64,000 nucleotides of DNA from the sequence record MW394391.1; one strand, given 5' to 3'. The position numbers and the translations under genes were made by a program. The stretch is from Klebsiella phage vB_KpM_FBKp24. The notes under the pieces are model-generated. The model was not told the DNA's origin. It worked only from the letters and a program-made list of their open reading frames with translations, and made no database searches. Below, piece after piece: positions 8,300 through 63,227 of this stretch (the first letter of the stretch is position 1; each line of letters starts with the position of its first letter).

Positions 8300-8989
8300 T
8301 CATTTATTGGTTTTGGTGATATACCATTTCCAAAGACCGTAGAACGCGTTCATCAAGAACACCGCCCATTGCGCAACCTGCGCCCATGAACCCGGTTGAT
8401 TAAGCGCCGGGATCACCCACAGATAAATCGTGACGCAGTTGATAATGATCCAGAGAATCCATTGCTCTGGCTGCTGCTTGATCATCATCCACATGGCGAT
8501 GAGCGATGCGACTAAGCAGAATGCGTCTAAGGCAGGAAACGGATCCTGCGTCGTTTTCAGGTATTCGGTCAGGCCATACCAGAAGATAACCCCAACAACC
8601 AGATATGTTATCACGTCACGTAAAGTGATCGTTTTAACCGCTACGTCAGCTTTGGCTGGAGTTTTGCCCAGGTCTTTCGTCCAGTAATAAATACCGATAA
8701 ACTGCATGGGAAGGTAAATAGCGTTCAACGCCGCATTCGCGTAGAGTCCGGTATTGTACGAAACAATACCGTAGGTAATTACACCAACGGTTCCCCAGTA
8801 GTAATTGGAGACACGACCTTTCGCTACCAGAATAACGCAGATCACGTTAGTCAGCGCCGCCGTAAATTCAAGTGGGCTGGCGCTCCAGCTACCAGCGCCC
8901 ACTAAGATCAACGCAATGATCAGCCAAAGGTATTCGACTTTCTTCCAGTGCGCAAAGTCAGTGAACGTTTTCAATACAAGTGTATTCAT
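8300..8989 (-). CDS. pnuC: nicotinamide riboside transporter PnuC
   Basis: 229 aa polytopic membrane protein; C-terminal WILWIIINCVTIYLWV... and overall layout match recalled E. coli PnuC. Confidence 0.8.
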   Translation of the reverse strand: MNTLVLKTFTDFAHWKKVEYLWLIIALILVGAGSWSASPLEFTAALTNVICVILVAKGRVSNYYWGTVGVITYGIVSYNTGLYANAALNAIYLPMQFIGIYYWTKDLGKTPAKADVAVKTITLRDVITYLVVGVIFWYGLTEYLKTTQDPFPALDAFCLVASLIAMWMMIKQQPEQWILWIIINCVTIYLWVIPALNQPGSWAQVAQWAVFLMNAFYGLWKWYITKTNK

Positions 8990-9151
8990 TTTGTGCTCGC
9001 TCGTTGATAGTTGAGAAAAATGGAAATATAACCTGCGCTATGAATATTGAGGTTATCGCCGAACATAGCGCGATAAAGGGGATAACTGTCTCCCAGTATC
9101 CTCTTTATTTTACGTTGCGTACGACGTTGATGGGTCATGTATCTATTCTCC
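8990..9151 (-). promoter_or_regulatory. 160-nt pnuC leader / nadR-pnuC intergenic region with inverted repeat GCGCTATG...CATAGCGC
   Basis: longest non-coding gap in the left arm; 8-bp inverted repeat 9036-9072; AT-rich TTATATTTCC element on coding strand. Confidence 0.25.
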
Positions 9152-10366
9152 TCAATCAGAAGACTTATGGTGACAGCGATCTTCGACACTATCTACCATC
9201 GCCTGAATCAAAGTAGTAATCGATCCGTCAGAAGGCGCGGTTTGGAACTTACCGGGCTCATCTTTCCGTACTGCGTCCCACCCCAGGAACCCTTCGTTAA
9301 ATGCCAGTAATTGATCTACGGCCGCACGGGCTTGATCTAAACGGCCTTTGTACGAGTCGCCAGTAATAAATACCGTACGCCCCCGAGGAGTTTGGTTTTT
9401 AAACTCCAGGAGCATTTGTTGGAATAACCCGTCAGTTTTCTCTCGATCCGGATTTAAACGCAAGCCGTCATCGACCCACGGGACTTCAGGAGACAGTATC
9501 AGAACGAGGTCGTAGTGTTCTTCGGCTGCGATGGCGGAGACGATAGGGTTAGGTTTACCTTCGTACAGACGATGGTAATACTCCGTGACGAAAGCGTTAG
9601 TATCGACGAAACAAAGTCGATTAGAGGTTCGTAACGCTTCCTCCTCCAACTCTTTGTGACGATACGCAATCAACGGGTAGTCAGAACTACGCAGTGTTAA
9701 CTCAGAGCCCGCTAAGACGGTTTCACAGTACGTACGGCCGTACTCTTCTACCCAGCTGGTGTTGTAGAGTTTAGCGAGGTTCTTGACGAGATTTGATTTA
9801 CCCGCGCTCTCGACACCCATGACGACAACCCGCAGACAATAGTCCTTACGGACAATACTGGGGAGATATTCCCAGTTGGCGTAAAGGTTATCACGTACTT
9901 TAGTGGCCGAGATAGGAACACGAGTACGTTCACTGTCAACGATGACGTGCTCAACAAAACCGAGGTGAGTTTTGTATTTCTCATCGTAATCCAGTTCGCT
10001 ACTGAAGATTGCGATAGATTGAGCTTGGCTGTGTTTAGCAGCCAGTTTCCCGGCCTCGCTGAAAATCTTTGCCCCTAATAAAGCGGCGTATTCCTGCCAG
10101 CCGTTAGGATATTCCGGCACCGAAGCTTCGTCGATGAAATCGATCGTAACGTGTTCGGTATCGGCGTAGGTTTGTTGCAACCAGCGCAGACGGTTTTTGA
10201 AGTTCAACACCTGCTGATCGCGGGGAGATTGTTTGTCCAACCAACGTTGGTCGTGAGATAATACCACGAGGACGTGTTTCGATTGGACAGCAGCTTCTGT
10301 AATTAGGTTGATGTGCCCCAAAGTCAGGGGTGCAAACTTACCGATGACGACGCCTAAATCAAACAT
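9152..10366 (-). CDS. nadR: NadR-like bifunctional NMN adenylyltransferase / ribosylnicotinamide kinase (no HTH domain)
   Basis: GKFAPLTLGH (H/T)xGH nucleotidyltransferase motif at residue 9; RLRWLQQTY; WEYLP...VVVMGVESAGKSNLV Walker A of RNK domain; collinear with recalled E. coli NadR residues ~60-410. Confidence 0.85.
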   Translation of the reverse strand: MFDLGVVIGKFAPLTLGHINLITEAAVQSKHVLVVLSHDQRWLDKQSPRDQQVLNFKNRLRWLQQTYADTEHVTIDFIDEASVPEYPNGWQEYAALLGAKIFSEAGKLAAKHSQAQSIAIFSSELDYDEKYKTHLGFVEHVIVDSERTRVPISATKVRDNLYANWEYLPSIVRKDYCLRVVVMGVESAGKSNLVKNLAKLYNTSWVEEYGRTYCETVLAGSELTLRSSDYPLIAYRHKELEEEALRTSNRLCFVDTNAFVTEYYHRLYEGKPNPIVSAIAAEEHYDLVLILSPEVPWVDDGLRLNPDREKTDGLFQQMLLEFKNQTPRGRTVFITGDSYKGRLDQARAAVDQLLAFNEGFLGWDAVRKDEPGKFQTAPSDGSITTLIQAMVDSVEDRCHHKSSD

Positions 10367-10385
10367 TGACTTTCACCTCTTAAAC

Positions 10386-10697
10386 TCAAGCGAAATGATG
10401 ATACAAACGATGTAAGTGGTAACCTTTGTAGTTCATCGCGGTGAAGCCTTGTTCGTTCTTTACCACGACTTTGGCTGCGTAATCCTCCATCAAAAGGAAA
10501 TCGCGCCCTGACTTAGAAAGAATATCTCCATCATAAACCGGACCATCAACAATCAACTGATTCATGGTGCCGATGACATGCCCGACATCTTTGCGTTCGA
10601 GTAACATCGTCACGGTTTTCTCTAACTCGGCCGCGTACGCCAGATCGCTTTCTTCTTCGTTATCAAGATTGCAGATTTCGATAATGGTGTTCAACAT
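10386..10697 (-). CDS. hypothetical protein (103 aa)
   Basis: ORF track. Confidence 0.5.
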   Translation of the reverse strand: MLNTIIEICNLDNEEESDLAYAAELEKTVTMLLERKDVGHVIGTMNQLIVDGPVYDGDILSKSGRDFLLMEDYAAKVVVKNEQGFTAMNYKGYHLHRLYHHFA

Positions 10698-36907: not shown

Positions 36908-39121
36908 ATGGCCAGTGAGATCTATGTAAAGCTCAGTGAAATGGATCGCCCATCAAAACCGGTAAACGATTCCGATCTGGTTTTTATTGCACAAAATGAA
37001 TCAGGGGTTGTTGAGTCTAAAGCGGCGGCCATCTCTGATCTGCGCGCGCTTCTTAATTTTGAAAATGCTTACACTACCACCACACTAGGTTTAGCCGATA
37101 CTGAAGCTAACCAAATCTTCTACGTTTTTGTCGATGCAACAAAAACGACAGTAAAATCTTATATTAATCGTAACGGCATCGCGGAGGCTATCCTTAACGC
37201 GGACGGCACTTTAAAAATCAATTACACTCTCGTCGGAATCGACGCTATTCAGAAAGAAATTAATTCCGTTTATTCCACGGGTGGGTCCAATAGCGTCGGT
37301 CATGTAAGAACAGAGATTGAGTCAAATTCAGCTAGTGTGGCAAAAACGCTGAACGGGCTCCCGGTTAACATTTGGGAATTTTCTAATTTAGTGACTAAAA
37401 AAGACAACCCGAATGATCCCTCTACTTGGGACTGGTCGCCAGCTGTAAGCGCAGCTATTGATAAGTGTATTTATCAAAAGCAAATTAATATCTCCAACGC
37501 ACAAAGATATTGTTCAGGTTGGCTCTTCTTCCCACCGGGAAAATATAGATTAGACAGTAAAATTGTCAAAGATTTAAGTTCTATTACGTACGAGACAGGT
37601 AAACCCCGTTTTAGGATTATGGGCCAAGGGGCTTACATTTCTTCTAATGTTAATAAGGATTATTTGTTAACGTTTACTGGTGGTAGATTGGAAATGGACG
37701 GAATAACGTTCATTAAAGAACCGGGTATTTTTGCTTACTACATTAAACTCGGAAGTGAAGTGACTGCTAACTCAATGGCCGTTGGCGGGAGATTCTCTAA
37801 TCTTAACTTCATGTCGCCCACTAAAGCGATAACCTTCGGTCAGTGTTACGATGCAGTATTTGATTGCATCTACATGACTGGGTTTGTTGCAGTTGACGAT
37901 AGCGATACAAATAACCCTGCGACGGGGATTCATATCTTACCTCAAGCCACGGACAACTCCAACAACATCGTGTTCATCAGACCACACATTGAAACGTCGT
38001 ACACTAAAAACTACATAGCTATTAAAGTAGATCCAACTTCTACCTCCAGTACACACCACAACATTAAATTTGAAGGCGGTCATATTGAGACGCACTTCTA
38101 CGGAGCGAAGTGGTTTAGTTTAGGCGGCGGTACTCAGTTTAATTTCGACACTGTAGTTTTTACAGACAACGGGTCAGGTGGTACGGATACTGCGGGCACT
38201 TACGAATTAGGGTACATCAACCAAGGGATTGTTAAATTTACCGGTTGTACTTTCCAAACACTAAGAAAATCTAGTGTTGCGTATGACAGTTCGATTCACA
38301 CTTCAATGATAAGGTTCGGATCTAGCACTAACACTGGTCGAATTTTCGACAGTTGCTATTTCTCATCGGCATTTTCCGAAGTCTCTGGTAACGGCACGAT
38401 CGCTCCGATTTTTGATGTCAGTGCAAGTACCCAGGGTAAAAGAGCGTACCAACTTATTAACTGCGCAATTAATAATTTTACCAGAAGAATATCAAGTGGT
38501 TTAATTCTTAATGATCTTAAAGTTGCGACAAGGAAATATATTGTCGATGTTGATAGTGACAACAATAGCGCCCTATCTATTTACTACACTAACACCGATG
38601 GATCTTTCAATCCAACTACTCCGATCCTTTCGGTGGCGCAAGATGGAACAATAAGTGGCTACCTCATTAAAACTACGGCTTCAATTTCAAGCGGAAATAT
38701 TCTCCAAATTGGGAATAACAATACTACTGCTGGCGATCGAAGACTGGATTTCTACCCGTACGGCAACACTACTTTAGGAGGTAGAATTTTACTTGGTAAC
38801 ACCGGACCGATGACTTTTACTAGTTATTTATCCGGTATGAACTTTGTTGCTAACGGAGGCGCTAGTCAGTTTAATTTCATGGGGTCAGTAGTACCGAATA
38901 GCAACGCGAACTATGACTTTGGTTCCGCAGCGCTTTCGTGGAAGAACGCTTACTTTACCGGGACTATAACTGTCAACGGTAATCCCGTAGGAGTTAAAGT
39001 AGCGGTACCTTCCTCGGCTACTTCGGCGGGTAGCGTTGGTCAATGGGCGGCTGATACAAATTATCTTTACGTTTGCATCGCCACAAATACTTGGGTGCGG
39101 TCAGCATTGACTACCTGGTAA
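36908..39121 (+). CDS. tailspike protein I (737 aa) with anchor-type N-terminus
   Basis: ...AAISDLRALLNFENAYTTT...IFYVFVDATKTTVKSYINRNG matches anchor family; beta-helix repeats. Confidence 0.7.
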   Translation: MASEIYVKLSEMDRPSKPVNDSDLVFIAQNESGVVESKAAAISDLRALLNFENAYTTTTLGLADTEANQIFYVFVDATKTTVKSYINRNGIAEAILNADGTLKINYTLVGIDAIQKEINSVYSTGGSNSVGHVRTEIESNSASVAKTLNGLPVNIWEFSNLVTKKDNPNDPSTWDWSPAVSAAIDKCIYQKQINISNAQRYCSGWLFFPPGKYRLDSKIVKDLSSITYETGKPRFRIMGQGAYISSNVNKDYLLTFTGGRLEMDGITFIKEPGIFAYYIKLGSEVTANSMAVGGRFSNLNFMSPTKAITFGQCYDAVFDCIYMTGFVAVDDSDTNNPATGIHILPQATDNSNNIVFIRPHIETSYTKNYIAIKVDPTSTSSTHHNIKFEGGHIETHFYGAKWFSLGGGTQFNFDTVVFTDNGSGGTDTAGTYELGYINQGIVKFTGCTFQTLRKSSVAYDSSIHTSMIRFGSSTNTGRIFDSCYFSSAFSEVSGNGTIAPIFDVSASTQGKRAYQLINCAINNFTRRISSGLILNDLKVATRKYIVDVDSDNNSALSIYYTNTDGSFNPTTPILSVAQDGTISGYLIKTTASISSGNILQIGNNNTTAGDRRLDFYPYGNTTLGGRILLGNTGPMTFTSYLSGMNFVANGGASQFNFMGSVVPNSNANYDFGSAALSWKNAYFTGTITVNGNPVGVKVAVPSSATSAGSVGQWAADTNYLYVCIATNTWVRSALTTW

Positions 39122-53043: not shown

Positions 53044-53050
53044 ATAAAAT

Positions 53051-53078
53051 AAAAAGAGGAGCAAATGCTCCTCTTTTT
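53051..53078 (-). terminator. terminator hairpin aaaaagaggagc-aaat-gctcctcttttt
   Basis: 12-bp stem with A/T runs both sides. Confidence 0.6.
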
Positions 53079-53079
53079 A

Positions 53080-53826
53080 TTACCATTTAGAGACAAGACC
53101 CGTTTTACCAGAAATAAACGGAGTACGATCCATCTGACGAATAGCATCAACCGTGGCTTTGAAACTCGACTCCACGGAGACCAAACTTTGGTCATTGGCC
53201 ATACTGCGAATAATCGCTGGTTGTACCGGGACAATCAGTGCCGACTCGCAAGACGGTGACATGTATTTGTTTGCGCAAGACAAACCGGGTTCGTTTACGA
53301 GATCCCAGGTAATAATGTTATCGACGTATTTACGAACCTTACCGCCAACCACTCTGTCGGTCGCCATACTGCGAATACTGAACGCCAGATTCTCGTCTGG
53401 GTTAGACATGATTTTCTCAAAATCTTCACGTCTGGCTCCCGTAGAACAAATCTCACCCATGATGGCGCAAATGCGCTGACCGTTAGGCAGAACGAAATTC
53501 GGCACAACCCAAACCTTGCGGATATGAAATGCCCAGTTACGTTCATCAATGGTGTGGATACGTTGAATGAATTTACGATAGTCGGCGTAATCGTATTCTT
53601 TGGGGTGACCCCATTCGCCGCGTAAATACCCTTCTCTCACGCGTTTCTGGAAAAGACCATTCTCCGCTAATATACGCTCAACACGTTGCTGGTCATATAC
53701 CGCACCAATACTGTTGTCGAACTCTAACGCCCCTAAAATAACTTCAAGGTAGTTGTTGTCCAGACGTTTAATATTCCCTACTCGGTTTACACCTTTCAGT
53801 GCTGTTACCTCAAATGACATCCCCAT
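53080..53826 (-). CDS. prohead maturation protease, T4 gp21-like (peptidase U9 family)
   Basis: ILGALEFDNSIGAVYDQQRVE...REGYLRGEWGHP resembles recalled T4 gp21 ITGIFSRADVKNANGRVYPKE...EKGELLGELDHP. Confidence 0.5.
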   Translation of the reverse strand: MGMSFEVTALKGVNRVGNIKRLDNNYLEVILGALEFDNSIGAVYDQQRVERILAENGLFQKRVREGYLRGEWGHPKEYDYADYRKFIQRIHTIDERNWAFHIRKVWVVPNFVLPNGQRICAIMGEICSTGARREDFEKIMSNPDENLAFSIRSMATDRVVGGKVRKYVDNIITWDLVNEPGLSCANKYMSPSCESALIVPVQPAIIRSMANDQSLVSVESSFKATVDAIRQMDRTPFISGKTGLVSKW

Positions 53827-53829
53827 GGC

Positions 53830-54558
53830 TTACCACCGCACAATATTAGAATGATTCATGAACTCATACGATAGCAGACCCGCCTTACGTTCTTTGGCCT
53901 GATTGAATTCGCTTTCCGATAGCGGGAACATTTCAACCTGACTTTGATCGAAAGGTTCTTCTTTATACTTTTCCAGGGCAGGGATAATCATTCGATAAAA
54001 CCCTCTTTTCAGATCGAAGAAGGGTGAGAATTTTACCGATGGGCTGTCAACCTGAATCAGTATTCGGGTTTCAATGGCTTTACTGTAGTCGTCTTTGATG
54101 ACTCTGAGTTCATCGATGAAACACTTTCCGACAACACGGGAGGGGTATCGTTGATCTTCAGTGTCGACGTTGACAAGCCATCTTTCTTCTGACCACTCTG
54201 CCATAGGGCAGATGACTTTCGTCGGACGGAGCGAACCTTCAACGGACAACGCATAAATCGTATACCCTCCTAACCATTCGTCCTTGCCCGCGCAATGTGC
54301 TTTACTGTCCATGAAATCCCGCAACGCCACGCCATAACCCCGTAAGCAATCAATGATTGTAATCCCGGTACAAACCCGTTTGACGGATTCATCTTCTCCG
54401 TTCATGGTTCGTTGGATCTCCCGAGGAATAAAAACCGGGATATTGGGATTAGGAGAGATATGGTAAAGTGTGCGGTGATGAGTATCGACTTCGAGCTCAT
54501 TAACGGCGTGCTCTTGTTGTTTACTGATGAAACTTTGAAGTCTCTCGTATGGGCTCAT
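53830..54558 (-). CDS. hypothetical protein (242 aa)
   Basis: ORF track. Confidence 0.5.
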   Translation of the reverse strand: MSPYERLQSFISKQQEHAVNELEVDTHHRTLYHISPNPNIPVFIPREIQRTMNGEDESVKRVCTGITIIDCLRGYGVALRDFMDSKAHCAGKDEWLGGYTIYALSVEGSLRPTKVICPMAEWSEERWLVNVDTEDQRYPSRVVGKCFIDELRVIKDDYSKAIETRILIQVDSPSVKFSPFFDLKRGFYRMIIPALEKYKEEPFDQSQVEMFPLSESEFNQAKERKAGLLSYEFMNHSNIVRW

Positions 54559-54559
54559 G

Positions 54560-55285
54560 TTACGCCCTCAGTAAACGTTCGATCGGTTGGGTTACTTCGT
54601 TCGGGTTAACAATAGCCGAATCCAGACCATCTCCGGTATAACTCCCCGAAATTTTCGCAGTGGTATCGGAAGACCCATCCACAACGTTACGTAAAGGTAT
54701 CCAGGTGAACGGCGTAGTACGCAGCTCACTGTAGCTGTGGATATGCTCACGTAAAGGAACTTTACGGTTACTTTCAATACGGGCTAACTGGGCGATGATC
54801 ATTTCACCGATAGTCGGTGTCGCAACCAACTTTGTTCCCGTATACTCTTCGGTTTCCGCAAAGAAGCTACCTAACGTAATGTAGTTGTAAAAGAACGGAA
54901 TCCTTCCTCGTGCTAAGATCTCTTCGAACAGGTAATAAAGAAGACCGTTGTCTTTTACCAAATCGATGCTTTTAACCACCGTGCTACCGGGACGGAAATA
55001 AAAGTCATAATAGCTTCGTCCAGCATATTCGAGTTGACGAATTTCCGTCGGTGTAATTTCCATCATACTCGGGGTGGTAGCAACCGCAAAATCACCCGCT
55101 TCGCTACAGATAGCAAAGAAGCCGATGATCATAATGCGTTTGCCCATACTGATTAACTGCTTCGCGCGAAAGGACTCTTGGATCACAATCCGGCAGCCGG
55201 TCGTGGTGACCAGACTGCCGTTTGGGAGTTCACGTAAAGTCGCTTGCAGCGCATCGGCATTGTGTTTCCACTGCGCGATATTCAC
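54560..55285 (-). CDS. hypothetical protein (241 aa)
   Basis: ORF track. Confidence 0.5.
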   Translation of the reverse strand: MNIAQWKHNADALQATLRELPNGSLVTTTGCRIVIQESFRAKQLISMGKRIMIIGFFAICSEAGDFAVATTPSMMEITPTEIRQLEYAGRSYYDFYFRPGSTVVKSIDLVKDNGLLYYLFEEILARGRIPFFYNYITLGSFFAETEEYTGTKLVATPTIGEMIIAQLARIESNRKVPLREHIHSYSELRTTPFTWIPLRNVVDGSSDTTAKISGSYTGDGLDSAIVNPNEVTQPIERLLRA

Positions 55286-55296
55286 TGTTCGACTCC

Positions 55297-56829
55297 TTAG
55301 TACACGGTGGCGTCATCCTGTTCGATAATACCCACTTTCTCTGCCTGTTTAAAAGTCAGGACATCGAAGTTAGCCACAAGCCATTTTGCCAGATAACGGA
55401 TGGCCGCAGTATAGGCAGCAGTCGTGCCGTCCTGATCGGAATCCTGCATTTCACTTTCTACGATATCGATAATGTCTTCGGCATCGATGAACGTGAAGAT
55501 GTGCTGGCAGACTTTCTGTTTGACCAATTCGAACAGATTGGGATCGTTGTCGATGTTCCAATTCGCGTAGAACTTACCGGACTTCAGATCTTCCATCACT
55601 TTGTTCAGTGCCGCTTCTTTACTGAACCCGCTTGGCAGTTGATCTTCATTGAGATTGTTCAGCGCTTGCGCCAGTTCCGGTACGAAACAGTTCGAAAGAC
55701 GTTTCAGGAACGTGTCATGGGAATAACGTTGACGCTGAATCTCAAGCGCCTGCCAACGTTTCAGGTTTTGCTGGTCGTTGGCAATAAACTGACCCAGTAA
55801 ACGTTGACCACCGCGCGGGTCTAACACGCCACCGATCACGCTTTCTGGCGTCAGTCCCTGAGAAAGTCCCTGGCGATATACCGGACCGAATACCACAATT
55901 TCCGCGTCTTCTGCAGAGGTAGCTACTTGGCTTTTTCCGGTGAAACGAATGATCATCTGACCGCGGCGGTTACAACCACTTAGCCAGCCCAGACCATTTT
56001 TGATCAGATAGCCGTATTGCAGCTTCATCGCATTGATCGCCGCCTCGTACTCGGGTAAAGTCATACCCGTACCCGGGAGCGGGTCTTGTGACATACTGTC
56101 AACCAGGAAATAGACCACGATGCCCAGATCGGTCAGAGAAGCATCACTGAATTTCCCTTCGCAACGTTGACCGTCTTTTTGTTGGACGAGTTCTGAAACG
56201 AAGCGAGTCACTGGGCAGATTGGGGTAATCGCACAGTTGCGGAAGAGGACGTTGTAAATGGAGACAATCGTATCGGCGCCATATTTTGCGATCGCGTCGG
56301 CCAATGCGTCGTCCAGTTCACTCACGCCAGTTTTCATCCCGTCAATTAAATCTACGTCCGTTTTTTCCGGGGCGTTTTTAATACGGGTAAAAAGAGGTGC
56401 GTTGGGTTTGAACTGGGCAAACGTATCAACTACGTAAGGGTCGTAAATGATCGGTGCAGGATCGTATTGCGTAATAGTGAACTCTTTTGGTTCTACGCCT
56501 TTCATCCTGTCCAGAATTTTACCCGTTACATCAGTGATCAGTGGTACTACCGTGTTGCGGACATACCCGATCTGACGCAGCAATGCGCCGCCAACAACTT
56601 CAACCGCGCCAGCGACTGCACCTTCATGCGGTTCAACCATCCCGATGGTACGTTGGGAGTTATCAAACAACACCTGGTCATACGCTTCCAGTGAAGGTTT
56701 GTGACTCTGGAAGAACGGGAGCGATTCAGCAACCGGGCTGAATAACAGAGACCCGGTGCGCGGGAAAAGGAATAACCCTTCGTTACTGACTACCGTCTTC
56801 GCGAGGGCAATAGACTTTTTGTTTAACAT
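55297..56829 (-). CDS. hypothetical protein (510 aa) in RNAP operon
   Basis: ORF track; TGATG coupling to upstream 63-aa gene. Confidence 0.5.
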   Translation of the reverse strand: MLNKKSIALAKTVVSNEGLFLFPRTGSLLFSPVAESLPFFQSHKPSLEAYDQVLFDNSQRTIGMVEPHEGAVAGAVEVVGGALLRQIGYVRNTVVPLITDVTGKILDRMKGVEPKEFTITQYDPAPIIYDPYVVDTFAQFKPNAPLFTRIKNAPEKTDVDLIDGMKTGVSELDDALADAIAKYGADTIVSIYNVLFRNCAITPICPVTRFVSELVQQKDGQRCEGKFSDASLTDLGIVVYFLVDSMSQDPLPGTGMTLPEYEAAINAMKLQYGYLIKNGLGWLSGCNRRGQMIIRFTGKSQVATSAEDAEIVVFGPVYRQGLSQGLTPESVIGGVLDPRGGQRLLGQFIANDQQNLKRWQALEIQRQRYSHDTFLKRLSNCFVPELAQALNNLNEDQLPSGFSKEAALNKVMEDLKSGKFYANWNIDNDPNLFELVKQKVCQHIFTFIDAEDIIDIVESEMQDSDQDGTTAAYTAAIRYLAKWLVANFDVLTFKQAEKVGIIEQDDATVY

Positions 56830-57020
56830 CAGACAATCCCCTCTTGTACACGGCGGGCGGCGATAGCAGCGCCAATAGCGGCGGCCAGATCTTCTTCGAT
56901 GTTCGCACCGTCTGGAATTCTGAGATCTTCGCTGCGCGCATTCAGCATGACGCGGCGGCCCACCTCAAGAATATTCGCAACGCTGGTTTGCGCAATTTCT
57001 TGCAAGCCTTCATTATTCAT
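56829..57020 (-). CDS. small protein (63 aa) between RNAP beta-like gene and 510-aa gene
   Basis: ORF track; AAGAAG before ATG. Confidence 0.4.
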   Translation of the reverse strand: MNNEGLQEIAQTSVANILEVGRRVMLNARSEDLRIPDGANIEEDLAAAIGAAIAARRVQEGIV

Positions 57021-57100: not shown

Positions 57101-60100
57101 CTATTCGCTATCGTACGCTTTCAGCATTTCCTGCTGAATGTTTTCAATAAGAATGTTGCCCATCCCCAGAAGTAAAGCGGAGTTTACAATACGTGCGTTA
57201 ATTGCACGGTAGGAAAATTGTAAATCAATATCCCACGGTTGACCGCCTGGTAAGACTGGTGTTGTCGTCCGACAGATTCCTTTATAGACACCACTCACTA
57301 CGGACTTCTTCTGGTTACCAACAACTAACTTATCGCCATCGCCCATACCGCGCTGATGGGTAATGTAGATACGAATCGCCATCATATCAATCTCTAATGG
57401 CATCCCGTCAATACGGCTTGGGGTAAAGACCTGACCCGTTAAGGCGGTTTCGGTCCCCAATAACTTAGCATTCTTTGCCCGAATGCTGTCATACTTGTCA
57501 GCGATCTTACGCACCGAATCCGACATATCTTCTTTTTCACCGAAATAGAAGACCTCGATCTTTTCAACCTTACCAACGTGTTTTGCACGTGGTGCCGGGT
57601 TACCTAAACGTTTCAACGTTTCCATTGTCGATTCGTCAAAGTAGTCGAAGGTTGCGGAAACTTCGTCCTCTATAAAAGCCAGCGTGTCTTCATTATCGAC
57701 GTGCTGTCCTTCACTGACCAAGTTACGGATGGCCTGATTGAAGTTCACCATCAGCACACGAGTGTGCGTTACCAAGGTAGTCATCTTTTGCGATAAGCGT
57801 TCCGAAATCAAACTGGCATCTTCGAACGTGTTATTGTTCTCGACCAGCGCAATGTTCGTTGTTACGCCATTCTTAAAAGCGACCTGAGTAGGTTCACGCC
57901 AATCTCGCGCAAAGAATCCAGGGTGGTAAGCTACGACATGGTCTTTATCTACCTTTGCCCCAACCTCAAGATCGCATACAACTTCATGCGGCTCAGTGTG
58001 GCCGGTGACGATACCAAATTTACGCCCTAACTCAATCTGGTCTTCGCCAAGTTCAGGGTCGTCGTACTTGATCACAACATGCCCTTTGGTTTTTTCGGTG
58101 ATTGTCCCCGGACCTTTCGCCACAGAAGAGAAAAGGTCATCGGTACGCTGCGCCATCATTAACTCGTACCCTGTCCGGATATAACCCAAATCGTCTCCGA
58201 CGGAATAGCGTTTATGGCTGCTCTGTATACCGATAAAGTTTACGCGCTTAGGGTCGTCGTATGTTGAAAAAGGCGAGACCAGTGCACTTGTAGATAGTAC
58301 GTTACTGAACCCTTTCTCTTTGCTGAGATCAGTCTCAGTCCGTGCCGTCCCGCGCAGACTTGTCAGGTTAGGGTTAGCCGATAAGTAACAGTTAATCCCA
58401 ACGTCGCCGTTATCCACCGAGGATTCAGAACGTATTCCGATGTCACTAGGATGGAAGGCACGTGTACGACGAGTCATGGATCGTTTTCCGCGACCACCCG
58501 TACCAGAGTAAGTCAAGTTCTCTTTCTCTTTAAGGTTCTGTATCGGGTTGGAATCCTCTACCAAGGAAACAGAAGGGTCTTTCTGAATCGCTGAAAGGAT
58601 TTCAAACGGCGGGAAATCCAACTGCGCCCTTGAACTCAAATTACTCGAGCTTTGTCTTCTCACGGCCTCAGCGAACGTTCTGTAGACCGCACCCGCCATC
58701 CTTTCATAGCCTTTGAAGAGTGAGCCCTGTGAACTCAGGTCACTTGGGTATTCATCGGTTGCAAGATAGAAGGCGGCTTTTTTCAGTAGCGGAATAAACT
58801 CGGTCGGTTCATTCATCGCCTCCAGGTTTTCTTCAGCGATAGGGTCAATGAACAGCGCTTTCAGGTTACTGAACTCGTACAGATATCTTCCTGATAGCTG
58901 CATGTCAGACAGTAAAGCGTTATAGTTGTCTTGGTTGTCGAGTTCCGCGACCGAATAGTTTTTCAGTGCGTTTTTCCACAATTGGAGAGAGCTATAAATC
59001 AAAACATCCGGATGAGTAATACGAGGGATCCGCCAAATCTCATCGGCAAAAACGATTTCAAATGTATTTTGATCCGGTTGAACTCGAGCGCCCTTCGTTC
59101 TACGTTGGGGTTTAATCTCCATCTTATCAACGAACTGAGTGAAACCCTCAAGATACATTAAGACGATGGCCAACGGGAACTCTTGTCCTAATATTGAAAT
59201 TGTGACAAGTTCATTAGGGCGGTTTACAGGGTCTGCACCAAAGAGTTTTGAGATATGACCCAATCTCTCTGGACCGACCTGAAGATAACCCTCTCTGTCC
59301 ATGGTAACGGTAGACCTGCCTCGTTTACCTACCGGGATATTTCCTTGCCCATTCCAATCCGGAAAATTCTTCCCAATGTTCGGATAGTCAAAGAAAAAGT
59401 TCATTCCCGCTGCGTCAAACGAAATGACTTCCTTCGCTATTGCCGAATAGGTACGGGGAACGGGTTGTGAATCCGTGAATGAATTTCCGTAAACGATCTC
59501 GGCCATCAATGGTGGATTAGAAAGCGCCGCAACGTTCATAGCGTCTTTTAACCATTCACCGTAATCGTGGCGACGTTTATCGCTACGGTCTACGAAGAGC
59601 TTTCCGTAGTAAGTTGAGAGCGCGACTGTGGATGGAGAAATTTTGCGGATCGGTTTATCGAAACGCAGTTTACGCATAAAGTATTTGATACCGCCAACTT
59701 TATACTTACCATTTTTATCCACTACCGGAAGCTGGAAACGCACTGTCGAAGGTGCACCTTTTACCGGGGAGATCTTCACGGTGTAATCGTAAAGGTCATT
59801 CAGCGCATCGACCTGACGTTCGACTTTGAAGTCAGTGATGGCGTATCCGGCCTTCTGGAATCCGAGCACCAGATTGATCACATCTTTCTGCATGACTTCT
59901 TCGACATACTTTCGATCGTAATCGATCAACGTACTCTTGAGCATACTTTTATCTTTGACGTGAGCAATATCAACCACTTCTTTCGGTTTAAAGTCCCAGA
60001 CAATTTCCTTCGGAATTTGCCGATACTCATCTAACGATATTTCCTCGTTAAAAGGAGAAGGGATCGTCTTGTAACTTTCCGCCAATCTGAGATGGCGTTT

Positions 60101-61579
60101 ATATTCACCTTGGGTTATTAAGCCTTTGGAAAGAAGCGTCTCAGCCTGGATCCGTATCCCAGAAATTAGCGGGTCTTCTACCTTATCTTCCAGAGGTGGC
60201 TCTATAACCGTCTCAGCGTCAACGTCAGGGGCTGAAACTAAACGCAAGGCCCTAGGGGCTTCAGTTGTCTCGATCTCTTCTGTCAGACTTTTAAATGCGT
60301 CTACGATCTGAGTACGGATTCCTGGTTGCCCCGCGTTAATTTTATCCCGAATTTCTTTTACCGTAACGGTTTTCTTCGGAATACCAGTCGGTGTTTCGTC
60401 TTCCGCGACAACCGTCTCAATTACAACGTCGTCTTCAACCGTCTCGCTAACTTCCAGAATCTCGCTTTCACCCGTGTTCTCATCCGGGATGGTTTCTTCG
60501 ATTGTGGCCTGTTCCTGAACACCCGTCAGTAATTTCAACGCCGTGAGATGCTGGAGCATTAACCGAGAGACCTGGGCGTATGCATCACCCTTCGGGTTTT
60601 CGTTGGATTTTGTCCAACGACTTAGACGCCCGAGGTTAAGTACTGTAAATTTCCCCATCCGTAAAAAGACAAAGTTGATCTTGTCGTAGTGGTCAGAGGG
60701 AATAATATTTAACAGGGATTCTTCCCGCTTCTCGGAAAGCCATTGCCAAAGATCTTGAATGAAAAGTGAGTCGTCATTCTGGAAATAACCCAAACGAATA
60801 CGATTCATCTCTTCCAACGCTAACCCGGAATGCTCTATAAAGCTGGAGTCCGTTTCAAACCCTAACGCTGATTCGTCGAAAGATTCTCTCGCTACATCAC
60901 CTGGGAACTCGGATGAAATCCCTGGGAAATGCAGATCGAAAACGTCGCTGTATGTTTGTACCAGTGATTTATTACGGTGTTGATTCTGATACGCGTTTAA
61001 CAGCGGTACCCCGCCATCTTCTACGGAGATATTCAGCTGCATCTTAGTAGGCATCTCATCAGGCACATTGACGAGAATGAATTGATGGCGGTCAGAATGT
61101 TCTGCGTAGTATTTCGCCTGAGTATAAAGCGTAGAGAGCAAATTCTGGAAACGCCAGAATCTCGCCATCGGCAACGGAAGATAACGCCATTGCATCGGGA
61201 TCAACGAGTAGTTTGCAAGGATCGCAGTATTCCTGTCATCCAGAGCGCGATTGATATCAGTTACTCGACGAAAACCACGGCGCTTTTGTATCCAAGTCCG
61301 TTTAAGGTTGGAAACATTAAACGCACCTTTACGGCGAGGGGAACCAATAAAGCTGGTCATCTCCGTAATGTTGTCCGCATAAGGGCGGGTACGTTCCCGT
61401 TGGAACGCGAAGAATGTTTCATCTGGACCGAGGTCAATCGCGTTAGTCGGGAGGTAATGAAGAATACTATTTTTTGGTAACGCGAAGTTTTCAATGTTAA
61501 AAGCACGGGGGTTCGATAATGTCGTACGATTACGAATTCCGTACGACATGTAAAATTGTTGGTACTGAATGTTGCTCAT
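57101..61579 (-). CDS. multisubunit RNA polymerase beta-like subunit (1492 aa)
   Basis: [23 protein letters not shown] vs bacterial beta [37 protein letters not shown] vs [29 protein letters not shown] vs [37 protein letters not shown] vs [26 protein letters not shown]; protein ends ~40 aa after this motif. Confidence 0.8.
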   Translation of the reverse strand: [1492 protein letters not shown]

Positions 61580-61595
61580 TACAGTGAAACTCCTG

Positions 61596-63227
61596 TTATG
61601 CGTCGCCAGTGATATTACGTAAAACTAACTGTACGTTGTCAACGTCAGCGCTCTTAGAGAGTGTGCCACGTGAAGATAGATACCACTCTTTGCGACTCTT
61701 TAATCTATTAAATTCCGCCAGGGAATCAGAAGCGTAAATGGCTGTGAAGGTACAACGGTCACCGTCGAAGTCGGCCCCTAAGGGATTGAGGTAACTCACT
61801 CCTATCCCCATCGAGTTAACGTATTCTACTGACTTAGTTTGGTCAGGGAATTCAAAGCAAATATAGTCTTCGCCCAATCTTCGCCAGTCGTGACCAAGTT
61901 CAGGTTTCACGCTAGAAACAATGGTCGGTTTACAGTAAATATTTGCTATGAAGGTTGAACCTTGCCCTGTGACAGGGTAACGAGTTACAACACCCGCCAG
62001 TTTTCCCCATTCCCGATATCCCGATAAGTAATAAAGGGAGGTCATGTTGATAGGGCTCACGAATCGCTTATCGAAACCCGCCGGGAGTTCATTAATGTCG
62101 GAGAAGAATCGGAAACCTTCCTCGCCCCAATAAAGAAGACCGAGATAAAAGCCATCTACCATGATCGGCTTACTGCGGAACGCAGGGGTTTTGTACCGGG
62201 TTATTTGTGCGTCAAGACCGTCACGGGTCGTCCAGCGTTCAATCGCCTCCGGTGAGGGTTGAACATATTCTGCTCGCAGCGTTTTTGGGTTAGTCAGTCG
62301 GATTTCATCTTCGCTATTACCAGAGAAGACTTCACCTAACCAGCCCGACCGTAAGAAGTAACGTGTTTTCGGCAACACCGCTTTGATCGTCTGGTAAAGA
62401 CCTAACTGAACATGGTTGACCCCAGGCGTATTCGTTTCACCGATTCGACCCCCGGTAATTTTCATCGGTGAAATGACGTTCGCCGTACCGTTGAGTATTT
62501 TACGAGAAGCCCATTTGGCTGCAGCGAAACCCTTTTTACCTTTAATCATGTTAAAGATACTTTCAAAGATTTCGTTGAACTGACGCTGGAGCTGTAAACG
62601 ACTGTTGTTGATTACGGGGTCTTCGGAAGGTTCTCTTCCCGTGTCAAGACTACTTGAAATAGAAATGATTGAGCGATAATATTTATTAATTTCATCTTCA
62701 CTGGTTCTACCGGTGGGCTCAACCATTAAATCCCGTAGCCCGGCTGGCATGACAAGTACTTTATCGACGAGGGCGTTTTCTTTGTTTTTGTTAATCAGTT
62801 TAACTCGGAGATTACGAATTTCCGAATCCCCTTCCTCGATCTTCAGTTCAGGGAAGTGACGAACAAAGAAAGCGAAACCCGTATCGCCCTCCATTTCGTT
62901 GCTGGGTTCGAAATCAAAGGTTTCTGTGTTAAAGACCGCGTAACGTCTACCCTCTAAAATATCCAGGTATAAGCGTTTTAAAGAACCTAGGCGCTTATAA
63001 ATGAGGGGGTGGAAAATTCGCGTGTTAAGATTAATGTAACTGAATCGACCGTCTCGTTCGGGAGAACCGAGGGGACCAAAAGTTTCAATAGAAAATAACC
63101 CATCCTTATGGAAGTTCCGCGTGCCCGTTTCAAATATTTCTGTTGTAACAGTCGGGCGCATACTCCGAATCAATTGCGGGGTTAGTTCCATGAGGAAGAT
63201 ATTGAAAGGAATATCATTGGTACGCAT
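61596..63227 (-). CDS. multisubunit RNA polymerase beta-prime N-terminal-like subunit (543 aa) with catalytic DFDGD motif
   Basis: VVTRYPVTGQGSTFIANIY...YLNPLGADFDGDRCTF vs bacterial LLNRAPTLHRLGIQAF...YNADFDGDQMAVH; AGGAG RBS; 16-nt gap to beta-like gene. Confidence 0.8.
   Translation of the reverse strand: MRTNDIPFNIFLMELTPQLIRSMRPTVTTEIFETGTRNFHKDGLFSIETFGPLGSPERDGRFSYINLNTRIFHPLIYKRLGSLKRLYLDILEGRRYAVFNTETFDFEPSNEMEGDTGFAFFVRHFPELKIEEGDSEIRNLRVKLINKNKENALVDKVLVMPAGLRDLMVEPTGRTSEDEINKYYRSIISISSSLDTGREPSEDPVINNSRLQLQRQFNEIFESIFNMIKGKKGFAAAKWASRKILNGTANVISPMKITGGRIGETNTPGVNHVQLGLYQTIKAVLPKTRYFLRSGWLGEVFSGNSEDEIRLTNPKTLRAEYVQPSPEAIERWTTRDGLDAQITRYKTPAFRSKPIMVDGFYLGLLYWGEEGFRFFSDINELPAGFDKRFVSPINMTSLYYLSGYREWGKLAGVVTRYPVTGQGSTFIANIYCKPTIVSSVKPELGHDWRRLGEDYICFEFPDQTKSVEYVNSMGIGVSYLNPLGADFDGDRCTFTAIYASDSLAEFNRLKSRKEWYLSSRGTLSKSADVDNVQLVLRNITGDA

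What the first reader, a model, noticed from the sequence alone, without database searches (positions are those of the whole stretch)
57101..63227. Phage-encoded multisubunit RNA polymerase: near-complete beta (1492 aa) plus split beta-prime N-terminal piece
Two adjacent minus-strand genes carry the hallmark catalytic motifs of cellular-type two-barrel RNAPs. The 543-aa protein has GADFDGDRCTF (beta-prime NADFDGD) preceded by the R-P-T-G lid/rudder region. The 1492-aa protein has the beta GDK..G..K..V.S lysine motif, the FEDASLISER block (beta GYNFEDSILVSER) and the GTGGRGKR...R.FHPS..G block (beta [23 protein letters not shown]). Gene order is beta-prime-N then beta. The beta protein is one long polypeptide that stops ~40 residues after the DPBB lysine motif, so the beta C-terminal clamp region (GEMEVWALEAYGA) and the beta-prime C-terminal half must be encoded elsewhere. 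In phiKZ/AR9-type phages, as far as I recall, beta itself is split in two. This suggests a distinct architecture of a virion-packaged or non-virion phage RNAP.
Basis: partly seen in the sequence, partly recalled or inferred. Interest (0 to 1): 0.7.

Follow-up and report, generated by a model that had tools for sequence, protein, structure and literature searches.

The report
Jumbo-phage virion RNA polymerase genes
These two genes encode the standard β′-N and β-N subunits of the virion-packaged multisubunit RNA polymerase found in all phiKZ-like jumbo phages, so the finding is real but already well known and its layout is not unusual.

Summary
The two minus-strand ORFs (61596-63227, 543 aa; 57101-61579, 1492 aa) and all the quoted motifs are present. 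They are full-length orthologues of phiKZ gp180 (β′N) and gp178 (βN, 1451 aa), and of SPN3US gp240 and gp241, which are subunits of the virion RNA polymerase (vRNAP) of phiKZ-like jumbo phages. The window is 98.7% identical to Klebsiella phage vB_KpM_Centimanus, where both genes are already annotated as RNA polymerase. AlphaFold models match bacterial and phage β′ (E 3.5e-16) and β (E 7e-28).

The "distinct architecture" reading is wrong. The roughly 1450-aa form is the family norm (median 1452 aa). Its size comes from a non-RNAP N-terminal region of about 480 aa. β is split here just as in phiKZ, shortly after the two catalytic-barrel lysines. The 223-aa βC (gp149 orthologue) lies about 13 kb beyond the window end in Centimanus, and β′M (gp80 orthologue) about 80 kb away.

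Both genes lack the introns that interrupt their homologues in phiKZ, PhiPA3 and Serratia phages. Verdict: already known, low interest.

The parts
61596..63227 (-). vRNAP β′N subunit, 543 aa (orthologue of phiKZ gp180 and SPN3US gp240). It holds the β′ N-terminal regions and the double-psi barrel DPBB-A with the Mg-binding DFDGD.
   Evidence: phrog_2986 at E 1e-185, full length. 35% identity to gp180 over residues 1-486, E 2e-101. Pfam Rpb1_1 weak, below cut-off. AR9 nvRNAP β′N 7s01_d at E 8e-6 by sequence. AF2 pLDDT 83, Foldseek top hits AR9 β′N, cyanobacterial RpoC1 and bacterial β′, E down to 3.5e-16.
61758..61772 (-). Codons for DFDGD (residues 486-490), the catalytic Mg2+ triad. This is also the site where phiKZ gp180 is interrupted by a group I intron carrying gp179; the gene is uninterrupted here.
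   Evidence: Invariant D486, D488, G489, D490. The annotated phiKZ gp180 ends at ...LGAD, and exon 2 (FDGDTVSF...) lies after gp179. Rfam Intron_gpI scores 92 bits at L002:5423-5744.
57101..61579 (-). vRNAP βN subunit, 1492 aa (orthologue of phiKZ gp178 and SPN3US gp241).
   Evidence: phrog_3148 at E=0, covering residues 4-1491 of the protein and positions 2-1422 of the 1424-position profile. 30% identity to gp178 across 8-1489. 99% identical to the Centimanus 'RNA polymerase beta subunit'.
60530..61579 (-). βN N-terminal domain (residues 1-350). It is conserved within the family and has no detectable RNAP homology. The literature proposes it as the head-targeting part.
   Evidence: Conservation profile. 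No hit to PDB by profile, nor to phiKZ gp68. PMC5105663: an N-terminal domain of about 400 residues without β homology, hypothesised to target the complex into the head.
60143..60529 (-). Acidic, poorly conserved linker (residues 351-479).
   Evidence: Residues 351-400 contain 16 D/E and 0 K/R; identity to homologues is 0.12-0.14 and alignment occupancy about 0.7.
57104..60142 (-). β-homologous body (residues 480-1492), from the β lobes through the fork (GTGGRGKR..FHPS), FEDASLISER and DPBB-B (GDK...K).
   Evidence: AF2 pLDDT 88.3, pTM 0.84. Foldseek: bacterial β chains at E 7e-28, TM about 0.5, about 1100-1300 aligned columns. HMMER alignment to Mycobacterium β 430-477 and 578-909.
57290..57343 (-). 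Codons for GDGDKLVVGNQKKSVVSG (residues 1413-1430), the DPBB-B lysines K1417 and K1425. The protein ends 62 residues later, which is the β split site.
   Evidence: invariant K938 and K946 of the fragment. PMC8287921 describes the two conserved DPBB lysines (K386, K394) of the phiKZ nvRNAP βN-like subunit gp71-73.
58253..58258 (-). Codons D1108-D1109 (YDD|PKR), the recurrent insertion site of HNH-endonuclease introns in relatives. It is intron-free here.
   Evidence: Homologues P0127, P0130-P0132 and P0176 end at or just after ...TYDD. The PhiPA3 gp210 intron follows the same two Asp, phiKZ D1072. The Serratia phage 2050HW and Totoro gene is split by an endonuclease.
56829..57020 (-). 63-aa ORF at the position of phiKZ gp177.1 (65 aa). 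Function unknown.
   Evidence: no PHROG hit.
55297..56829 (-). 510-aa head protein at the position of phiKZ gp177 and SPN3US gp243. It belongs to the head gene block but is not an RNAP subunit.
   Evidence: phrog_3841 at E 1e-62. Weak colinear similarity to gp177, E 0.005. Synteny.
54560..55285 (-). vRNAP β′C subunit, 241 aa (orthologue of phiKZ gp176 and SPN3US gp244).
   Evidence: 30% identity over the full length to gp176, E 3e-45. phrog_2926 at E 7e-72. The literature assigns gp244/gp176 as β′C (PMC5105663, PMC7618050). My own profile tests against RNAP were inconclusive.
53080..53826 (-). Prohead maturation protease (phiKZ gp175 orthologue), the last gene of the block.
   Evidence: phrog_3014 at E 1e-69. 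tblastn with gp175 at E 2e-19.
53048..53081 (-). Terminator-like hairpin (15-bp stem followed by a T-run) immediately after the protease gene. It is the likely end of the transcription unit.
   Evidence: This is a pattern match only, and the overall number of such matches in the region is not above shuffles.

Best explanation
The two genes encode the β′N (543 aa) and βN (1492 aa) subunits of the five-polypeptide virion RNA polymerase (vRNAP) of a phiKZ-like Klebsiella jumbo phage. A third subunit, β′C (241 aa, 54560-55285), lies two genes downstream in the same minus-strand head-morphogenesis block, which ends with the prohead protease. The remaining subunits, βC (gp149-like, about 223 aa) and β′M (gp80-like, about 455 aa), are encoded elsewhere in the genome.

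Shown here: β′N supplies the DFDGD Mg2+-binding double-psi barrel, and βN supplies the second barrel with the two conserved lysines. Together these form a cellular-type two-barrel active site.

Taken from experiments on the orthologues in phiKZ, SPN3US and Goslar, and inferred for this phage: the five subunits are made late and assemble before being incorporated into the prohead. Incorporation depends on βN, whose non-RNAP N-terminal region is the proposed targeting module. The complex is ejected with the DNA and transcribes early phage genes independently of host RNAP, without α or ω subunits and without a known sigma factor.
For: Full-length PHROG matches. Orthology to phiKZ gp180, gp178, gp176 and gp175, with the gene order gp181(divergent)/gp180/gp178/gp177.1/gp177/gp176/gp175 conserved. 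98.7% nt identity to Centimanus, where both genes are annotated as RNAP. Invariant DxDGD and two invariant Lys. AF2 and Foldseek matches to β′ and β at probability 1.0. βC and β′M orthologues found in Centimanus at 37280-37951 and 103690-105057. A separate nvRNAP gene pair at 135529-139769, orthologous to gp74 and gp71-73, shows that the window pair is the virion set; gp71, gp73 and gp74 do not hit the window. Literature: phiKZ vRNAP = gp178, gp149, gp180, gp80, gp176 (PMC8287921, PMC7618050). SPN3US five-subunit vRNAP with sizes 519, 1401, 222, 431 and 240 aa, all lost from virions when βN, βC or β′C is knocked out (PMC5105663, PMC5694885). Review of vRNAP architecture (PMC7598289). Co-immunoprecipitation of gp178, gp80 and gp149 with tagged gp180, and packaging of the tagged subunit into virions (PMC10612078).
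Against: There is no direct evidence for this particular phage: no virion proteomics, no activity data. The β′C assignment rests on orthology plus published genetics and proteomics. My profile comparisons with RNAP β′ were not significant. Pfam models do not reach their cut-offs for either protein, which reflects extreme divergence. The rest of this phage's genome was not available, so βC and β′M were located only in the 93-99% identical relative.
Confidence: 0.95

Rival explanations
1. One reading: a new RNAP architecture in which β is one nearly complete polypeptide, unlike the split β of phiKZ and AR9.
For: The ORF is long (1492 aa) and contains most of the conserved β blocks.
Against: phiKZ gp178 is 1451 aa and colinear over the whole length. 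The homologue median is 1452 aa. About 480 N-terminal residues are not β (PMC5105663). The C-terminal split after the lysine motif is the same as in phiKZ, and a gp149-type βC exists in the nearest relative.
Confidence: 0.02
2. The pair belongs to the non-virion RNAP (middle and late transcription inside the phage nucleus) rather than the virion enzyme.
For: Both enzymes are built from split β and β′ pieces carrying the same motifs. The best solved-structure match of β′N is an nvRNAP subunit (AR9), but only because no vRNAP structure turned up in either PDB search.
Against: Best and full-length matches are to gp178 and gp180, which phiKZ annotates as 'structural head protein'. phiKZ nvRNAP subunits gp71, gp73 and gp74 give no hit in the window but hit a separate Centimanus locus. 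The genes sit in the head-protein and protease block, as in phiKZ and SPN3US (PMC5694885).
Confidence: 0.02
3. The genes are decayed or exapted RNAP relics that now serve only as structural or ejection proteins, without polymerase activity.
For: Extreme divergence from cellular RNAP (12-14% identity in the structural alignments). Pfam matches are below threshold.
Against: All catalytic residues are invariant across the family. The ORFs are intact. The folds are confidently predicted as β and β′. The orthologous enzyme is essential and responsible for early transcription in phiKZ and SPN3US (PMC5105663, PMC7598289).
Confidence: 0.01

Closest known systems
phiKZ virion RNAP subunits gp180 (β′N), gp178 (βN) and gp176 (β′C)
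   Same: Same subunit boundaries, lengths (gp178 1451 vs 1492 aa; gp176 242 vs 241 aa), motifs, and neighbourhood: a divergent giant tail gene, then β′N, βN, a small ORF, the gp177-like gene, β′C and the protease. Identity is 30-35% over the full length.
   Different: phiKZ gp180 is interrupted inside DFDGD by a group I intron carrying gp179; the window gene is continuous. The window also has an extra 242-aa ORF (53830-54558) between β′C and the protease.
Salmonella phage SPN3US vRNAP (gp240 β′N 519 aa, gp241 βN 1401 aa, gp244 β′C 240 aa, gp218 βC 222 aa, gp42 β′M 431 aa)
   Same: Five-polypeptide layout and subunit sizes. βN has a non-RNAP N-terminal region of about 400 aa. β′N, βN, the gp243-like gene, β′C and the protease are syntenic (PMC5105663, PMC5694885).
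   Different: In the tblastn search, SPN3US-type phages (SPFM4, SPAsTU and others) align only from residue about 260 onward at about 30% identity, so the first part of the N-terminal domain is more diverged or absent there.
Klebsiella phage vB_KpM_Centimanus CENTIMANUS_00019 and 00020 (OZ240615.1)
   Same: 98.7% nt identity and 99% aa identity; same genes and order; already annotated 'RNA polymerase beta subunit'.
   Different: The window differs from Centimanus elsewhere: 93-95% identity in other parts, and the tail-fibre/depolymerase region at window 22-47 kb matches only in patches. The deposited annotation calls β′N a 'beta subunit' and β′C a 'virion structural protein'.
phiKZ and AR9 non-virion RNAPs (PDB 7S00/7S01; phiKZ nvRNAP structure described in PMC8287921)
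   Same: Split β and β′, no α or ω, the same two-barrel active site. β′ is split after DPBB-A as in cyanobacteria (PMC7598289). AR9 β′N is the closest solved structure to the 543-aa protein.
   Different: A different paralogous set. nvRNAP βN is much shorter (394+295 aa in phiKZ; 757 aa in Centimanus). The review states that the β split sites of vRNAP and nvRNAP lie at different positions. nvRNAP has a promoter-specificity subunit (gp68); vRNAP has five rather than four core pieces and is packaged in the capsid.
Bacterial RNAP β and β′ (RpoB, RpoC)
   Same: Overall fold and catalytic motifs.
   Different: 12-14% identity. Each subunit is broken into 2-3 polypeptides. There is an extra N-terminal region of about 480 aa on βN, and no α, ω or σ partners.

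Membership tests
phiKZ-type vRNAP βN (gp178 / SPN3US gp241 / phrog_3148) | Full-length colinear homology to family members | tested here: met
   phrog_3148 at E=0 covering 4-1491. gp178 aligned 7-1442 with 8-1489. 191 phage records cover at least 80% of the query.
phiKZ-type vRNAP βN (gp178 / SPN3US gp241 / phrog_3148) | β double-psi barrel with two conserved lysines, and a β-like fold of the body | tested here: met
   K1417 and K1425 invariant. AF2 model pLDDT 88; Foldseek to bacterial β at E 7e-28.
phiKZ-type vRNAP βN (gp178 / SPN3US gp241 / phrog_3148) | Polypeptide ends shortly after DPBB-B, with a separate small βC (gp149-like) elsewhere | tested here: met
   The protein ends 62 aa after the motif. 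The gp149 orthologue CENTIMANUS_00031 (223 aa) is in the nearest relative. This phage's own genome beyond the window was not available.
phiKZ-type vRNAP βN (gp178 / SPN3US gp241 / phrog_3148) | Long N-terminal region without RNAP homology | tested here: met
   Residues 1-479: a conserved domain plus an acidic linker. No PDB or Pfam hit.
phiKZ-type vRNAP β′N (gp180 / SPN3US gp240 / phrog_2986) | Full-length homology; DxDGD barrel near the C-terminus; split right after DPBB-A | tested here: met
   phrog_2986 at E 1e-185. gp180 at 35% identity. DFDGD at 486-490 of 543. Foldseek to AR9 β′N, cyanobacterial RpoC1 and bacterial β′.
phiKZ-type vRNAP β′C (gp176 / SPN3US gp244 / phrog_2926) | Orthology to gp176/gp244 and position between the gp177-like gene and the protease | tested here: met
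   E 3e-45 over the full length to gp176. phrog_2926 at E 7e-72. Synteny.
phiKZ-type vRNAP β′C (gp176 / SPN3US gp244 / phrog_2926) | Detectable homology to the C-terminal conserved region of β′ | tested here: inconclusive
   A 61-sequence profile gave no RNAP hit in PDB. hhalign against Centimanus nvRNAP β′C gave E 0.015, probability 3%, aligned to its C-terminal part, and nothing against phiKZ gp74. The published match was equally weak (E 0.05, PMC5105663).
Virion-packaged enzyme (as opposed to nvRNAP) | Physical presence in the capsid and ejection with the DNA | not testable with these tools
   Inferred from orthologues detected in phiKZ, SPN3US and Goslar virions ('structural head protein'; PMC5694885; bioRxiv 10.64898/2026.04.21.720040).
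phiKZ-type non-virion RNAP (gp71-73, gp74, gp55, gp123, gp68) | Closest homology to nvRNAP subunits | tested here: not met
   gp71, gp73 and gp74 give no tblastn hit in the window at E 1e-2. They hit Centimanus 135529-139769 instead.
Cellular-type two-barrel multisubunit RNAP | Pfam RpoB/RpoC domain models above the gathering threshold | tested here: not met
   Only Rpb1_1 at 25.7 bits against a cut-off of 39.7 for β′N, and nothing for βN. Homology is nonetheless established by structure and motifs.

The most novel reading that the evidence does not exclude
The only open element is the family-conserved, non-RNAP N-terminal module of βN (residues 1-350 plus the acidic linker 351-479). It has no detectable relative among solved structures. 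It could be more than a capsid-targeting tag, for example the promoter-specificity or DNA-loading element of a vRNAP for which no sigma-like factor is known, or a device for unfolding and ejection through the tail. Nothing here tests this, and it applies to the whole family, not to this window in particular.
Probability: 0.15. Interest if true: 0.45.

Novelty: already known. Interest (0 to 1): 0.08.

Why it matters
It matters little as a discovery. The vRNAP of phiKZ-like jumbo phages has been described since the 2000s, and this exact gene pair is deposited and annotated in a 98.7%-identical phage. The practical value is in annotation. The gene labelled 'beta subunit' at 61596-63227 is really β′N. 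The 'virion structural protein' at 54560-55285 is the β′C subunit. Both large genes are the intron-free alleles of sites that homing-endonuclease introns target in related phages.

Tried and rejected
1. Pfam on both proteins gave only a sub-threshold Rpb1_1 hit. This reflects divergence and is not evidence against RNAP.

2. The first whole-protein word-indexed search of the 1492-aa protein returned only 13 hits, probably because the low-complexity linker saturated the candidate list. I repeated it with residues 480-1492 and got 151 hits.

3. I tried to prove the β′C identity of the 241-aa ORF independently. A profile search against PDB sequences gave only spurious PPR and Csm2 hits. hhalign against nvRNAP β′C from Centimanus and phiKZ gave E 0.015 and 0.24.

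4. I tried to assign the βN N-terminal domain. A profile search against PDB gave nothing below E 0.9. hhalign against the phiKZ nvRNAP specificity subunit gp68 gave nothing.

5. The 242-aa ORF 53830-54558 is not similar to the adjacent protease by BLASTP (E 31), so the comparison gives no support for its being a diverged protease paralogue.

6. Rfam and tRNA scans of the whole window found nothing, so no intron RNA is hidden in these genes.

7. Sigma-70 promoter and terminator scans were not above shuffles. Only the hairpin after the protease gene looks meaningful.

8. I did not fetch Centimanus 141-255 kb, so gp55-, gp68-, gp123-like and chimallin genes were not located.


Full report
**Observation.** The window contains two adjacent minus-strand ORFs exactly as reported: 61596-63227 (543 aa) and 57101-61579 (1492 aa), 16 nt apart. 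Every quoted motif is present:
- In the 543-aa protein: PAGLRD 161-166, TRYPVTG 415-421, and DFDGD 486-490.
- In the 1492-aa protein: GTGGRGKR 1026-1033, FHPS 1042-1045, FEDASLISER 1252-1261, and GDGDKLVVGNQKKSVVSG 1413-1430.

HMMER aligns these blocks with the corresponding blocks of mycobacterial β. The N-terminal half of the 543-aa protein aligns with the β′N subunit of the AR9 non-virion RNAP, 7S00/7S01. One small correction: the long protein ends 62 residues after the lysine motif, not about 40.

**Identity.**
- PHROG profiles match both proteins end to end: phrog_3148 at E=0 and phrog_2986 at E 1e-185. Pfam does not reach threshold, which shows how diverged the family is.
- The DNA is 98.7% identical to Klebsiella phage vB_KpM_Centimanus (OZ240615.1, 299.7 kb), where both genes are already annotated as RNA polymerase. 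The long protein is 99% identical to the deposited one.
- tblastn finds the long protein in 311 jumbo-phage records, including phiKZ PHIKZ178.
- Pairwise, phiKZ gp178 (1451 aa) aligns over residues 7-1442 with 8-1489 of the window protein at 30% identity. gp180 aligns over 1-490 with 1-486 at 35% identity.
- The neighbourhood matches phiKZ gene for gene: a divergently transcribed giant tail gene (gp181), then β′N, βN, a roughly 63-aa ORF (gp177.1), a roughly 510-aa head protein (gp177), a 241-aa protein (gp176) and the prohead protease (gp175).

**Test of the stated refutation criterion.** I built alignments from database homologues: 920 hits for β′N and 151 for the β body.
- β′N model: AlphaFold2 pLDDT 83.1. 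Foldseek against the PDB returns only RNAP β′ chains, led by AR9 nvRNAP β′N (E 3.5e-16), then cyanobacterial RpoC1 and bacterial β′.
- βN residues 480-1492: pLDDT 88.3, pTM 0.84. Foldseek returns only bacterial β chains, at E 7e-28, TM about 0.5, over about 1100-1300 aligned columns.
- D486, D488, G489 and D490 are invariant, as are K1417 and K1425.

The RNAP assignment therefore stands.

**Why the "distinct architecture" reading fails.**
- The long form is the norm. phiKZ gp178 is 1451 aa, SPN3US gp241 is 1401 aa (PMC5105663), and the median of 121 homologues is 1452 aa.
- The length does not come from a complete β. Residues 1-350 form a family-specific domain and 351-479 an acidic variable linker. 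Only 480-1492 is β-like. This agrees with the published note that the first roughly 400 residues of SPN3US gp241 have no β homology and may target the complex to the head (PMC5105663).
- β is split here as in phiKZ. The missing C-terminal part is a separate 223-aa protein, CENTIMANUS_00031 at 37280-37951, about 13 kb beyond the window end. It is the orthologue of phiKZ gp149.
- The middle piece of β′ (the phiKZ gp80 orthologue, 35% identity, E 2e-58) is CENTIMANUS_00088 at 103690-105057.
- A distinct nvRNAP gene pair, orthologous to gp74 and to an uninterrupted gp71-73, lies at 135529-139769. It does not match the window, so the window pair is the virion set.

**A third subunit in the window.** The literature defines the vRNAP core as five polypeptides: N-β′, Mid-β′, C-β′, N-β and C-β (PMC7598289). 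For phiKZ these are gp180, gp80, gp176, gp178 and gp149 (PMC7618050). The 241-aa ORF at 54560-55285 is the full-length orthologue of gp176 (30% identity, E 3e-45; phrog_2926) and so of SPN3US gp244, the genetically and proteomically identified β′C (PMC5105663). My own attempts to show RNAP homology for it were inconclusive, as were the published ones. This assignment rests on orthology plus published experiments.

**Mechanism.**
- Shown here: the two catalytic barrels and their residues, the subunit boundaries, and the genomic context in a head-morphogenesis block that ends with the protease and a terminator-like hairpin at 53048-53081.
- Inferred from experiments on orthologues:
  - All five subunits assemble before incorporation into the prohead, and all are lost if βN, βC or β′C is missing (PMC5105663, PMC5694885).
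  - Tagged gp180 co-precipitates gp178, gp80 and gp149 and is packaged into virions (PMC10612078).
  - The enzyme is ejected with the DNA and transcribes early genes independently of host RNAP (PMC7598289, PMC7618050).
  - In chimalliviruses this happens inside the early-infection vesicle (bioRxiv 10.64898/2026.04.21.720040).
  - Proteolytic removal of the βN N-terminus by the prohead protease occurs in 201φ2-1 but not in SPN3US (PMC5694885). It is unknown for this phage.

**Introns.**
- phiKZ's annotated gp180 stops at ...LGAD, inside DFDGD. The rest (FDGDTVSF...) follows gp179 and a group I intron core that Rfam detects at 92 bits.
- Several database homologues of β′N likewise end at ...LG[AG]D. 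Several homologues of βN end at ...TYDD. That is the site where the PhiPA3 gp210 homing-endonuclease intron sits and where gp210 cuts phiKZ gp178 (bioRxiv 10.1101/2023.09.30.560319).
- Serratia phages 2050HW and Totoro have an endonuclease gene within the βN gene region.
- The window genes are continuous at both sites, and Rfam finds no intron in the window.

**Verdict.** The RNAP and virion-packaged interpretation is right. The claim of a novel architecture is wrong. This is an already known, already annotated system, and the only unresolved question, the role of the βN N-terminal module, applies to the whole family rather than to this window.

Noticed in passing
window 54560-55285 (-): This 241-aa ORF, annotated in the relative only as 'virion structural protein', is the orthologue of phiKZ gp176 and SPN3US gp244. 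That makes it the fifth (β′C) vRNAP subunit, and the window holds three of the five subunits.
   Followed up: yes
window 61758-61772 and 58253-58258 (-); L002:4354-5983: Both vRNAP genes are intron-free at the two sites (GAD|FDGD and YDD|PKR) where homologues are interrupted by group I introns or HNH endonuclease genes. Examples are phiKZ gp179 with its intron (Rfam 92 bits), PhiPA3 gp210, Serratia phages 2050HW and Totoro, and several truncated metagenomic homologues.
   Followed up: yes
window 53830-54558 (-): A 242-aa ORF of unknown function (phrog_5043) sits between β′C and the prohead protease. phiKZ has no gene at that position. It shows no similarity to the protease by BLASTP.
   Followed up: partly
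window 53048-53081 (-): A 15-bp-stem hairpin followed by a T-run lies immediately after the protease stop codon. It is a plausible terminator closing the roughly 10-kb minus-strand block that starts at β′N.
   Followed up: partly
window about 22069-47547: This stretch matches Centimanus only in short patches at 94-95% identity, whereas the flanks are colinear. In Centimanus the corresponding region carries tail fibre, tail spike and EPS depolymerase genes, so it is probably a swapped host-range cassette.
   Followed up: no
window 60143-60529 (-) (βN residues 351-479): A strongly acidic, poorly conserved linker (16 D/E and no K/R in residues 351-400) separates the conserved N-terminal domain from the β body. 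Its low complexity probably explains why the first whole-protein database search returned only 13 hits.
   Followed up: partly
window about 8300-10400; L003:17600-19962: By colinearity with Centimanus, the window carries pnuC and nadR (NAD salvage) genes. There is an indel of about 300 nt relative to Centimanus between them (window 8990-9327 against L003 18290-18923).
   Followed up: no
L007:30026-30109 (Centimanus 121400-121483, outside the window): The relative's annotation lists a 'tRNA-Stop(tta)', a suppressor-like tRNA, within its tRNA cluster. The window itself has no tRNA genes.
   Followed up: no
L001:21743-23374 (CENTIMANUS_00020) and PHROG 2986: The β′N protein is labelled 'RNA polymerase beta subunit' in PHROGs and hence in the deposited genome. 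This is a naming error (β′, not β) that propagates through automated annotation.
   Followed up: yes
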